From Escherichia coli O127:H6 str. E2348/69 (GTDB lineage: Bacteria > Pseudomonadota > Gammaproteobacteria > Enterobacterales > Enterobacteriaceae), in assembly GCF_000026545.1 (NCBI RefSeq), contig NC_011601.1: DNA of 64,000 nt. One strand, given 5' to 3'. Positions within the stretch are counted from its first letter, which is position 1. Each line of letters starts with the position of its first letter. Below, piece after piece: positions 46,216-49,200 of the stretch. The position numbers were made by a program.

Positions 46216-49200
46216 TTATTTGCTCGCCAGGAATTTTCGGAATAAATATGCTTTTGCATAATTCGATATATAAAGACGATGTAGAGGAAAAGTAGCGAGA
46301 AAATCTGCATGGTTATGCATAACCATGCAGAAATGTAAATTTAATTTATGTCTAATTCTTTTATTTTTCTCTCTTTGCGTACTGTCAGCGTAGAACCCAT
46401 TGAAGCGGCGATGATAGCGCCGAGCGCCAGCAGCTGTATGGGTGTCAGTGTTTCTCCGAGGAAAATCATCCCGGAAACGGCAGCCAGCGCAGGTTCCATG
46501 CTCATTAGCGTACCAAATGTGCGTGTTGGCAAACGGGTGAGGGCAATCATTTCCAGCGAATAAGGCAGAGCGGTCGAGAGAATAGCGACAGCCAGACCCA
46601 ATGGAATAACCGACCAGTGCCAGAGTGCTTCACCAGCCTGAAGCGCTCCAATTGGCACGAAAATTAACGCTGCAATCAACGAACCAATTGCCACCGTCGC
46701 AGGACCATGTTCCGCTCCAGCGCGTTGCCCACTTAAAATGTAAATAGCCCAACAAGCCCCGGCCCCCAGTGCCAGCGCACAGCCGGTTAAATCGACATGG
46801 GAAACGTCTTGCCCCAGCGGTAGCAGGAACCACAGACCAAGAACCGCCAGCACAACCCAGACGAAATCTACCGGGCGACGAGAAGAGAACAGTGCCACCG
46901 CCAGTGGTCCGGTGAACTCCAGCGCCACCGCAATACCCAGCGGTACCGTCTGAATAGAAAGATAAAAAAGATAATTCATTCCACCCAGCGAAACGCCGTA
47001 AAACAACAGCGGTAATCGTTGCTCTTTGGCAAAGCGCAGTCGCCATGGCTTAAAGAACGCGATGAGGATCAGCGTGCCTAATGCAAGACGCAGCGCAGTG
47101 ACCCCCGGTGCGCCCACCAGAGGAAAAAGTGACTTAGCTAACGAGGCTCCACCCTGAATAGACGCCATGGCAACGAGCAATATGACTATTGGTAACCAGA
47201 CCGGCATTTTACGTAATGAACCAGGCATCCTTTCTCCCACAAATATCTAAACCTAAGTAAAGCGTGGAGTGTACTGGATATACCCAATGCTGGTTGAGCA
47301 TTTGTTGAAAAAATTTTCCCCCGTTTTGACTAAAATGCGCCAGGATTGATGGAATCATTAGTCTGGTGATTAGGAATAATCTGGATGAATGACAGGGAAA
47401 ACATGCGTAATACTTACGCAGTTCTCTGAAAAAGTGATTTAAATTTAGATGGATAGCGGTGTATGGAAACGTTCTGTTACATGAAATGGCCCGTTAGACA
47501 TCATAAATCGCGAAGAGTTTCCCATTAATTTTTGATATATTTAAAACTTAGGACTTATTTGAATCACATTTGAGGTGGTTATGAAAAAAATTGCATGTCT
47601 TTCAGCACTGGCCGCAGTTCTGGCTTTCACCGCAGGTACTTCCGTAGCTGCGACTTCTACTGTAACTGGCGGTTACGCACAGAGCGACGCTCAGGGCCAA
47701 ATGAACAAAATGGGCGGTTTCAACCTGAAATACCGCTATGAAGAAGACAACAGCCCGCTGGGTGTGATTGGTTCTTTCACTTACACCGAGAAAAGCCGTA
47801 CTGCAAGCTCTGGTGACTACAACAAAAACCAGTACTACGGCATCACTGCTGGTCCGGCTTACCGCATTAACGACTGGGCAAGCATCTACGGTGTAGTGGG
47901 GGTGGGTTATGGTAAATTCCAGACCACTGAATACCCGACCTACAAACACGACACCAGCGACTACGGTTTCTCCTACGGTGCTGGTCTGCAGTTCAACCCG
48001 ATGGAAAACGTTGCTCTGGACTTCTCTTACGAGCAGAGCCGTATTCGTAGCGTTGACGTAGGCACCTGGATTGCCGGTGTTGGTTACCGCTTCTAATCAC
48101 TTCGGTGATATAAAAAATCCGCCTCTCGGGGCGGATTTTTTTGTGCACAGAAAACCCCCAGCTAGGCTGGGGGTTCCGGAAAGCTTTCAGCTTTGAGCCA
48201 GTTATTAAAACCCCTTTTGATTTGTTAAAACACCTTGCGGTCTGGCAACTGCAAGTGTCAAACAAGAAATCAAAAGGGGGTCCCAATGGGGAACGAAAAG
48301 AGCTTAGCGCACACCCGATGGAACTGTAAATATCACATAGTATTTGCGCCAAAATACCGAAGACAGGTGTTCTACAGAGAGAAGCGTAGAGCAATAGGCT
48401 GTATTTTGAGAAAGCTGTGTGAGTGGAAAAGTGTACGGATTCTGGAAGCTGAATGCTGTGCAGATCATATCCATATGCTTGTGGAGATCCCGCCCAAAAT
48501 GAGCGTATCCGGCTTTATGGGATATCTGAAAGGGAAAAGCAGTCTGATGCTTTACGAGCAGTTTGGTGATTTGAAATTCAAGTACAGGAACAGGGAGTTC
48601 TGGTGCAGAGGGTATTACGTCGATACGGTGGGTAAGAACACGGCGAAGATACAGGATTACATAAAGCACCAGCTTGAAGAGGATAAAATGGGAGAGCAGT
48701 TATCGATTCCCTATCCGGGCAGCCCGTTTACGGGCCGTAAGTAACGAAGTTGGATGCAAATGTCAGATCGTGTGCGCCTGTTAGGGCGCGGCTGGTAAGA
48801 GAGCCTTATAGGCGCATTTGAAAAACCTCCGGCTATGCCGGAGGATATTTATTGTTTTAAGGTTTCGGGTCGAAAATATCGGTTCCGAGATGGTTGTAAT
48901 CCACCTTCTGTAACTGGAAGTTGGTGATGTATATCGGCCCGGCTTTCTTCTCAGATATAAACGGGTATTTGATATTTATTTCCTTCGCTTTAATTCCCGT
49001 CCACTGCGAGAAAAAGCCTAAGAAGTCATTGGCCGAGCGGCGGGCTTTAATCACCCGATGCGCTTTATCGTCGCTGGAAATGACCATAAAAGGCACCTGG
49101 AAATTTTGCTGATACTTATCATCATGGGCAAGGTATTGCACGTCTTTGCCGCGCTCTTTAAAGGCCAGACCGTGGTCGGAAAAGTAAACCAGCGAGAAGC

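What the first reader, a model, noticed from the sequence alone, without database searches (positions are those of the whole stretch)
46304..46331. 28-bp perfect palindrome between the rhtA stop and the dps upstream region
TCTGCATGGTTATGCATAACCATGCAGA is a perfect 14+14 palindrome 10 bp downstream of the rhtA stop, followed on the minus strand by a T-rich run. It most likely terminates rhtA and insulates the heavily regulated dps promoter from read-through. Its perfect symmetry also makes it a possible dimeric protein-binding site.
Basis: seen in the sequence. Interest (0 to 1): 0.25.

Follow-up and report, generated by a model that had tools for sequence, protein, structure and literature searches.

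The report
Conserved hairpin ending the rhtA message
The 28-base perfect palindrome just after the rhtA gene is real and encodes an RNA hairpin conserved across enteric bacteria that most likely marks and protects the end of the rhtA transcript, which makes it an ordinary gene-end signal rather than a protein-binding site.

Summary
TCTGCATGGTTATGCATAACCATGCAGA (46304-46331) is a perfect 14+14 palindrome, 9 nt after the rhtA stop. About 2e-4 such palindromes are expected by chance in 64 kb. It is single-copy and essentially invariant in 5,416 of 5,426 complete E. coli genomes.

About 70 of 80 Enterobacteriaceae species have a 10-18 bp hairpin at the same place. The arm sequences differ between genera, and all 13 aligned pairs show compensatory changes. 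Wobble pairs favour the rhtA-sense RNA (25 G·U versus 8 A·C). Loop length varies from 3 to 10 nt. The hairpin persists in two genomes where dps is not downstream.

So what is conserved is an RNA hairpin tied to rhtA. It is not a DNA dyad for a dimeric protein, and it is not a dps element.

Most orthologs have no U-tract after the hairpin (usually AAUAU...), but the downstream sequence is consistently C-rich and G-poor. The window has UUUUCUCG and K-12 has UUUCUCGC.

Best reading: a 3'-end stem-loop that acts as a weak intrinsic terminator in E. coli, backed by Rho-dependent termination and acting as an exonuclease barrier.

No rhtA 3' end is listed in the two published tables I could check. 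This is a new member of a known kind and of low interest.

The parts
46304..46331 (-). 28-nt perfect palindrome. In the rhtA-sense transcript it forms a hairpin whose 12-bp stem pairs 46331-46320 with 46315-46304, closed by the loop UGCA (46319-46316).
   Evidence: The structure is conserved with compensatory changes in 51 aligned orthologs. The sequence is invariant in E. coli.
46332..46340 (-). 9-nt spacer (AUUUACAUU) between the rhtA stop codon and the hairpin.
   Evidence: The gap is 5-12 nt in nearly all orthologs.
46341..47228 (-). rhtA coding sequence (threonine/homoserine exporter), with its stop codon at 46341-46343.
   Evidence: Full-length NCBIfam equivalog match, E = 1e-174. ORF listing and RefSeq annotation.
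46286..46303 (-). Tail after the hairpin, UUUUCUCGCUACUUUUCC: an imperfect U-tract with 5 U in the first 8 nt.
   Evidence: The T-tail score is 2.14 here, 1.06 in K-12, and 0.79 on average over 70 orthologs.
46226..46303 (-). C-rich, G-poor stretch directly after the hairpin (18 C, 8 G in 78 nt), a candidate Rho-loading (rut-like) region.
   Evidence: The C/G ratio is at the 98.7th percentile of all 78-nt windows in the 64 kb. C exceeds G in 64 of 69 orthologous loci.
46042..46145 (-). dps core promoter and 5' UTR. This is the next functional element downstream and the only other conserved island in the intergenic region. It includes the -10 hexamer TATACT (46093-46088) and the CTAT-N7-ATAG motif (46128-46142).
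   Evidence: Alignment of the intergenic region from 28 genera.
45472..45500 (-). dps terminator, a canonical hairpin followed by UUUUGUUUUG. It is listed only as a comparator for what a full intrinsic terminator looks like at this locus.
   Evidence: A strong Term-seq 3' end at K-12 coordinate 848340 (minus strand) in the PMC7815308 tables.

Best explanation
The palindrome encodes the 3'-terminal stem-loop of the rhtA mRNA. Once RNA polymerase passes the rhtA stop codon, the transcript folds into a stable 12-15 bp hairpin. In E. coli the hairpin is followed by a short, imperfect U-run (UUUUCUCG in this window, UUUCUCGC in K-12). Part of the polymerases probably terminate there intrinsically. 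Polymerases that read through expose an untranslated, C-rich and G-poor stretch on which Rho can load, and Rho would stop them before or within the dps promoter region. 3'-to-5' exonucleases would then trim these longer RNAs back to the hairpin. Under this model the hairpin defines and protects the steady-state 3' end of the rhtA mRNA and limits transcription running into dps.

What is shown: the existence, position, conservation, covariation and strand bias of the hairpin, the variable U-tract, and the conserved C>G composition downstream. What is inferred: termination itself, the involvement of Rho, exonuclease trimming, and any insulation of dps.
For: - **Stability and position.** The hairpin is stable (-17.8 kcal/mol, z = -5.9) and lies 9 nt after the stop codon. 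The terminator scan flags it.
- **Conservation.** About 70 of 80 Enterobacteriaceae rhtA loci have a 10-18 bp hairpin 5-12 nt after the stop, although the arm sequences diverge.
- **Covariation.** All 13 aligned pairs have compensatory changes. Of all cells, 92.5% are paired, against 73% in shuffles and 30-46% with the partner slid.
- **Strand.** In the inner stem there are 25 G·U against 8 A·C, and the sense strand folds better in 44 hairpins against 12, which points to an RNA on the rhtA-sense strand.
- **Linkage to rhtA.** The hairpin is kept in L075, where dps is missing and glnH lies downstream of rhtA, and in L084, where the neighbours are unrelated genes.
- **Replacement.** In two Mangrovibacter genomes the hairpin is missing, and a canonical GC-rich hairpin with a UUUU tail sits 28-39 nt downstream. 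Some Citrobacter species carry the hairpin with a true T-run. This is as expected if the selected function is 3'-end formation.
- **Downstream composition.** C/G is 18/8 here, at the 98.7th percentile of the window, and C exceeds G in 64 of 69 orthologs.
- **Fit to a described class.** This matches E. coli Rho-dependent 3' ends as described in PMC6061677: stable stem-loops without a U-rich tail or upstream A-tract, C-over-G enrichment just downstream, and evolutionary switching by a change in U content. Cooperation of weak intrinsic terminators with Rho is reported in bioRxiv 10.1101/2022.07.21.500918.
Against: - No experimental rhtA 3' end was found. The Term-seq tables of PMC7815308 list no minus-strand 3' end between K-12 coordinates 848852 and 850273. 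The SMRT-Cappable-seq supplements do not mention rhtA. rhtA is probably poorly expressed, so this absence is weak evidence.
- The rest of the intergenic region is also somewhat C>G on this strand (14.8 C against 9.8 G), so the composition signal is not specific to the first 78 nt.
- The hairpins were located by a hairpin search before they were aligned, which inflates the pairing statistics somewhat.
- Perfect inverted repeats can also be kept matched by template-switch mutation (my own knowledge), so covariation alone does not prove selection on the RNA.
- The strongly conserved UAUU...AAUA base of the stem has no specific explanation in this model.
Confidence: 0.62

Rival explanations
1. This is a self-sufficient, efficient intrinsic (Rho-independent) terminator of rhtA that insulates the dps promoter.
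For: The element has a hairpin followed by UUUUCUCG in this window and is picked up by the consensus terminator scan. From my own memory, not checked here, phage T7 Te terminates well with a similar UUUCUGCG tail. Most inverted repeats just after E. coli stop codons are parts of intrinsic terminators (PMC6060812). A few Citrobacter orthologs have full T-runs.
Against: The U-tract is short and interrupted. K-12 and most E. coli genomes have only UUU. In most genera the stem is followed by AAUAU.., with a mean tail score of 0.79, so the conserved function cannot depend on a U-tract. There is no upstream A-tract. No Term-seq 3' end is listed.
Confidence: 0.2
2. This is a DNA-level element of the distal dps regulatory region: an operator for a dimeric transcription factor, or a cruciform bound by Dps or another nucleoid protein.
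For: The dyad is perfect with an AT-rich centre. As single-stranded DNA each arm pair folds at -12 kcal/mol. The palindrome lies in the 214-bp distal fragment of the dps regulatory region studied by the Ozoline group. That group reports Dps affinity for branched DNA and a DNase-protected site nearby, about 175 bp from primer dps_F1 (PMC4433220).
Against: Arm sequences are not conserved between genera. Spacing varies (loops of 3-10 nt, often odd-length and asymmetric). Twenty-five G·T positions break the DNA symmetry while still pairing in RNA. The hairpin is retained after rhtA where dps is absent. It is separated from the conserved dps promoter by about 170 bp of non-conserved sequence. In PMC4433220 the fragment lacking the full palindrome (F2-R2) bound Dps better than the fragment containing it.
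Confidence: 0.05
3. This is a specific post-transcriptional control element of rhtA: a hairpin recognised by a dedicated RNA-binding protein or RNase, for example through its conserved UAUU/AAUA base, which tunes rhtA mRNA stability or translation termination.
For: The U-A pairs at the base of the stem are kept in 47 of 51 sequences while the inner stem varies. The distance to the stop codon is tightly conserved. The strand bias indicates an RNA.
Against: There is no match to any Rfam family and no second copy in the window with the covariance model. The loop sequence is not conserved. The features are equally explained by a generic stable 3' stem-loop.
Confidence: 0.08
4. This is a functionless palindrome that persists through hairpin-templated (template-switch) correction and hitch-hiking.
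For: The arms match perfectly in E. coli, and the arm sequence turns over quickly between genera.
Against: The element persists at one position across about 70 species from many genera while the surrounding roughly 170 bp are unalignable. It tolerates G·U but rarely A·C. Where it is lost, a canonical terminator replaces it.
Confidence: 0.03

Closest known systems
3'-terminal protective stem-loops of Rho-dependent E. coli transcripts (Dar & Sorek 2018, PMC6061677)
   Same: A stable stem-loop lies directly after the coding region. It has little or no U-tract and no upstream A-tract, and a C-over-G composition follows immediately downstream. U content varies between lineages, as expected for switching between termination modes.
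   Different: Rho dependence, exonuclease trimming and the actual 3' end have not been measured for rhtA. The E. coli alleles carry a partial U-run, so this copy may be a hybrid rather than purely Rho-dependent.
Canonical intrinsic (Rho-independent) terminators, such as the neighbouring dps terminator at 45472-45500
   Same: The hairpin has comparable length and energy, lies in sense orientation after a stop codon, and in this window is followed by UUUU.
   Different: The U-tract is short and interrupted and is absent in most orthologs. There is no A-tract upstream. The stem is longer and more AU-rich at its base than is typical. No mapped 3' end exists.
REP/BIME extragenic palindromes
   Same: It is an extragenic palindromic hairpin in a 3' UTR that could block exonucleases.
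   Different: It is single-copy. The only second BLAST place per genome is the palindrome matching itself on the other strand, and no other copy was found in the window. Its sequence is unrelated to the REP consensus.
Palindromic operators of dimeric transcription factors
   Same: It has perfect dyad symmetry in E. coli and lies upstream of a heavily regulated promoter.
   Different: Half-sites and spacing are not conserved, and what is conserved is base pairing.

Membership tests
Intrinsic (Rho-independent) terminator | Stable stem-loop in the sense transcript downstream of the stop codon | tested here: met
   A 12-bp stem with a 4-nt loop, -17.8 kcal/mol, z = -5.9, lying 9 nt after the stop.
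Intrinsic (Rho-independent) terminator | A 7-8 nt U-rich tract immediately 3' of the stem | tested here: inconclusive
   The window has UUUUCUCG (5 of 8 U) and K-12 has UUUCUCGC. In 70 orthologs the tail usually starts AAUAU, with a mean tail score of 0.79 against 2.14 in the window.
Intrinsic (Rho-independent) terminator | RNA 3' ends mapping a few nt after the stem, or termination in vitro without factors | not testable with these tools
   No rhtA 3' end is listed in the Term-seq tables of PMC7815308 or in the supplements of PMC6131387. No in vitro data were found.
Protective 3' stem-loop of a Rho-dependent transcript (PMC6061677) | Stable stem-loop lacking a U-rich tail and an upstream A-tract | tested here: met
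   This holds for most orthologs. E. coli is borderline because of its UUU(U) run.
Protective 3' stem-loop of a Rho-dependent transcript (PMC6061677) | C-over-G composition (rut-like) directly downstream | tested here: met
   The next 78 nt hold 18 C against 8 G, at the 98.7th percentile of the window. C exceeds G in 64 of 69 orthologs. The more distal intergenic region is also C>G, so the signal is not sharply localised.
Protective 3' stem-loop of a Rho-dependent transcript (PMC6061677) | Bicyclomycin-sensitive read-through and PNPase/RNase II trimming back to the stem | not testable with these tools
   rhtA does not appear in the supplementary tables of PMC7815308, one of which gives a per-3'-end statistical comparison that I took from memory to be its bicyclomycin table. 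The supplement of PMC6061677 is not held.
Dimeric transcription-factor operator | Conserved half-site sequence at fixed spacing across species that share the regulator | tested here: not met
   The arms differ between genera (TTCTGCATGG, TTTACCGTGG, TTCAGCATGAG, TTTCCGCTTGC and others). Loops span 3-10 nt. G·T positions break the dyad.
REP/BIME repeat family | Many dispersed copies per genome with a shared consensus | tested here: not met
   There is one locus per genome in 5,416 E. coli genomes. The covariance model finds no other significant hit in the 64 kb window.
Any described RNA family (Rfam 15) | Score at or above a family's gathering threshold | tested here: not met
   The best overlapping hits are chance-level, with E of 0.16 or worse and scores far below gathering thresholds.

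The most novel reading that the evidence does not exclude
The hairpin may be more than a generic gene-end structure. It could be a dedicated, conserved cis-element, recognised through its invariant UAUU...AAUA stem base and its fixed distance from the stop codon. As RNA it could be bound by a specific protein or RNase that sets rhtA exporter levels. As an extruded cruciform it could nucleate Dps or other nucleoid proteins at the distal edge of the dps control region.
Probability: 0.07. Interest if true: 0.5.

Novelty: new member of a known kind. Interest (0 to 1): 0.2.

Why it matters
The practical value is modest. The result gives rhtA a defined 3' boundary element. That is useful for annotation and for strain engineering, because rhtA is a widely used threonine/homoserine exporter. 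The locus also offers a clean comparative example of one orthologous hairpin appearing with no U-tract, a partial one or a full one in different lineages, as predicted for switching between Rho-dependent and intrinsic termination (PMC6061677). Finally, the result removes the palindrome from the list of candidate dps regulator sites.

Tried and rejected
- **Literature search by sequence.** A search for the palindrome sequence itself gave 0 papers. A search for rhtA + dps + terminator also gave 0.
- **Experimental 3' ends.** The PMC7815308 tables list neither rhtA nor any minus-strand 3' end near K-12 849165-849172. The supplements of PMC12207403, PMC6131387 and PMC11347139 gave no hit. The supplements of PMC6061677, PMC9023263, PMC8848933 and PMC12259150 are not held. 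Two further papers were not held at all.
- **Known RNA families.** The Rfam scan returned nothing meaningful.
- **Repeat family.** The covariance model built from the orthologs found no other copy in the window. BLAST found one locus per E. coli genome.
- **Known dps regulator site.** I rejected the idea that the palindrome is a known dps regulator site. The MntR-like box and the OxyR-like motif lie at 46087-46109 and 46128-46142, about 200 bp away.
- **dps terminator as a control.** My automatic extraction of dps terminators as a U-tract control was noisy, because it sometimes picked REP-like or over-extended stems. I use it only qualitatively.
- **Biased wobble count.** My first G·U versus A·C count was biased by a G·U-permissive hairpin finder. 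I repeated it with a symmetric criterion and on fixed alignment columns.

Full report
**Locus.** The window is E. coli. The dps-rhtA intergenic region is 100% identical to strain E2348/69 and 96.7-99.7% identical to the other listed genomes. Three genes here lie on the minus strand: glnH (44388-45134), dps (45538-46041) and rhtA (46341-47228, stop codon at 46341-46343). ompX is divergent on the plus strand. RhtA and Dps are confirmed by full-length NCBIfam equivalog matches.

**Observation.** TCTGCATGGTTATGCATAACCATGCAGA at 46304-46331 is a perfect 14+14 palindrome with no spacer.
- It is the only perfect palindrome with arms of 7 nt or more in the 64 kb. About 2.4e-4 with arms of 14 nt or more are expected from base composition.
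- Nine nucleotides separate it from the rhtA stop.
- In the rhtA-sense RNA it folds into a 12-bp stem with a UGCA loop, at -17.8 kcal/mol and z = -5.9. It is followed by UUUUCUCGCUACUUUUCC.
- The consensus terminator scan flags it, along with the canonical dps terminator at 45472-45500.
- As single-stranded DNA the hairpin is worth -12 kcal/mol.

**Within E. coli.** The intergenic region is present in 5,421 of 5,426 complete genomes.
- A 64-nt query centred on the palindrome matches 5,416 genomes. Of these, 1,166 are identical to the window, 4,246 are 95-99% identical and 4 are 90-95% identical.
- In the three further genomes I aligned, the differences all lie outside the 28-mer. K-12 and two other strains have T instead of A at the base equivalent to 46303. 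This extends the palindrome to 15+15 (TTCTGCA...TGCAGAA) and shortens the downstream run to UUUCUCGC.
- The median of two BLAST places per genome is, by my reading, the palindrome matching itself on both strands. The element is single-copy.
- In one strain an IS1 sits 6 nt after the hairpin and leaves it intact. In another, an ISKpn26 lies in the intergenic region.

**Across Enterobacteriaceae.** A scan with RhtA returned 80 loci from Escherichia, Citrobacter, Salmonella, Enterobacter, Kosakonia, Buttiauxella, Leclercia, Lelliottia, Atlantibacter, Franconibacter, Cedecea, Pantoea, Serratia and others.
- About 70 of the 80 have a 10-18 bp hairpin starting 5-12 nt after the rhtA stop.
- The arm sequences differ widely between genera, for example TTCTGCATGG, TTCAGCATGAG, TTTACCGTGG, TTTCCGCTTGC, TTTCGCACG and TATGACATGG.
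- On a 51-sequence alignment, all 13 pairs of the stem show compensatory double changes. Of all cells, 92.5% are paired, against 73% in column shuffles (0 of 500 shuffles reach the observed value) and 30-46% when partners are slid. The covariation score is 0.585 against 0.194.
- Caveat: I located each hairpin with a hairpin finder before aligning it, which favours pairing. The common position and the alignment of the flanks limit this bias.

**RNA or DNA, and which strand.** Non-Watson-Crick positions in the inner 11 pairs are G·U on the rhtA-sense strand 25 times and A·C 8 times. A·C would read as G·U on the other strand.
- A symmetric hairpin definition gave 31 against 12.
- The sense strand folds more stably in 44 of 62 distinct hairpins and the antisense strand in 12.
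- The counts are not phylogenetically independent, but they point to an RNA structure in the rhtA transcript.
- Loops vary from 3 to 10 nt and are often odd-length and asymmetric. The perfect through-the-centre symmetry is therefore an Escherichia peculiarity, not the conserved property.
- This speaks against a dimeric DNA-binding site.

**Does it belong to rhtA or to dps?** The order ompX-rhtA-dps and an intergenic length of about 300 bp are conserved nearly everywhere.
- In an alignment of the intergenic region from 28 genera, only two islands are conserved. One is the hairpin right after rhtA. The other is the dps core promoter, 5' UTR and ribosome-binding site. The roughly 170 bp between them are unalignable.
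- In L075, dps is missing and glnH lies downstream of rhtA. In L084 (a Serratia), the neighbours are unrelated. A hairpin still follows the rhtA stop in both.
- The element therefore travels with rhtA.

**What kind of 3' element.**
- In most orthologs the last G:C pair of the stem is followed by AAUAU(U/C)C..., not by a U-tract. The mean T-tail score is 0.79. The window scores 2.14 and K-12 scores 1.06.
- A few Citrobacter species have the same hairpin followed by a real T-run (TTTTTGTTT). Two Mangrovibacter genomes lack the hairpin and instead have a canonical GC-rich hairpin with UUUU 28-39 nt downstream. This pattern fits selection for 3'-end formation, with the means of achieving it varying between lineages.
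- The 78 nt after the hairpin on the sense strand have 18 C and 8 G, at the 98.7th percentile of all 78-nt windows in the 64 kb. C exceeds G in 64 of 69 distinct orthologous loci, with means of 18.1 C and 9.1 G. The more distal intergenic region is also C>G, though less so.
- This combination is what Dar and Sorek reported for steady-state 3' ends of Rho-dependent E. coli transcripts: a stable stem-loop, no U-rich tail, no upstream A-tract and C-over-G just downstream. They interpreted the stem-loops as exonuclease barriers with rut sites immediately downstream, and proposed that terminators switch type by changing U content (PMC6061677).
- Cooperation of weak intrinsic terminators with Rho has also been described (bioRxiv 10.1101/2022.07.21.500918).
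- Inverted repeats directly after stop codons are a known enriched class in E. coli (PMC6060812).

**Mechanism proposed.** The hairpin forms as soon as polymerase has passed the stop codon.
- In E. coli the UUU(U)CUCG tail probably allows partial intrinsic termination. From memory, T7 Te works with a similar tail.
- Read-through RNA is untranslated and C-rich, so Rho can load and terminate within the next 100-200 nt, before or at the dps promoter.
- Exonucleases then trim back to the hairpin, which stabilises the rhtA mRNA.
- Insulation of dps is a reasonable consequence, but it is inferred, not shown.

**Missing evidence.** I found no experimental rhtA 3' end.
- The Term-seq tables of PMC7815308 list the dps terminator end (848340, minus strand) but nothing on the minus strand between 848852 and 850273. 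The expected rhtA end would be near 849165-849172.
- Other supplements either do not mention rhtA or are not held.
- Low rhtA expression is a likely reason, so this absence neither supports nor refutes the model.

**Prior notice.** The Ozoline group's 420-bp 'dps regulatory region' spans the palindrome.
- Primer dps_F2 begins inside its downstream arm.
- The 214-bp distal fragment F1-R1 contains the whole palindrome.
- Their figure marks direct and inverted repeats (PMC4433220).
- In their assays the proximal fragment, which lacks the full palindrome, bound Dps better than the distal one.
- In the passages I retrieved from that paper, no function was assigned to the palindrome.
- No Rfam family matches the element, and a covariance model built from the orthologs finds no other copy in the window.

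**Verdict.** The element is a conserved RNA hairpin at the rhtA 3' end. It is most likely a 3'-end-defining and protective stem-loop that works as a weak intrinsic terminator in E. coli with Rho-dependent back-up. The protein-binding suggestion is not supported. This is a new, well-conserved member of a known kind, and its interest is low.

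Noticed in passing
window 46087-46109 (dps promoter, overlapping the -10 TATACT at 46093-46088): AAGTATAGCACCAGCTATGTGTT is a near-palindrome (ATAGC-N5-GCTAT) that resembles the MntR box as I remember it. In the intergenic alignment the matching ACACATAGC half is present only in E. coli and E. albertii, not in other genera.
   Followed up: partly
window 46128-46142: CTATCACACTAATAG (CTAT-N7-ATAG) is the most strongly conserved motif of the whole rhtA-dps intergenic region across 28 genera, together with the -10 element GCTATACT. It is probably part of the known OxyR/IHF control region of dps (from memory).
   Followed up: partly
window 48286-48741 (+), downstream of ompX: An ORF matching the IS200/IS605-family transposase (NCBIfam NF033573, E = 7e-43). 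K-12 has no such gene at this position, so this is a strain-specific insertion sequence next to ompX.
   Followed up: partly
L086 (E. coli tcmA_3) and L004 (E. coli 1332KP): Insertion sequences have landed in the rhtA-dps intergenic region. An IS1 sits 6 nt after the hairpin and leaves the hairpin intact. An ISKpn26 (IS5-like) lies about midway through the region. These are natural separations of the hairpin from the dps promoter and could serve as ready-made test strains.
   Followed up: partly
window 46248-46261: ATGCTTTTGCATAA is an imperfect inverted copy (86%) of the centre of the palindrome (TTATGCATAACCAT) and lies 51 nt away. It could pair with the hairpin region in RNA or be a chance match. 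It is conserved only within Escherichia.
   Followed up: no
window 47404-47420, upstream of ompX (K-12 coordinates 850273 and 850293, + strand): The small hairpin TGCGTAATACTTACGCA in the ompX 5' region coincides with 'orphan' Term-seq 3' ends listed in the PMC7815308 tables, about 157 nt upstream of ompX near the small gene yliM. This suggests premature termination or processing in the ompX leader.
   Followed up: no
rhtA-dps intergenic region, L005-L083: The length of the intergenic region is held at about 273-322 bp (mostly 295-305 bp) across genera, although its central roughly 170 bp are unalignable. This suggests a constraint on spacing or composition (AT-rich, C>G on the sense strand) rather than on sequence.
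   Followed up: partly
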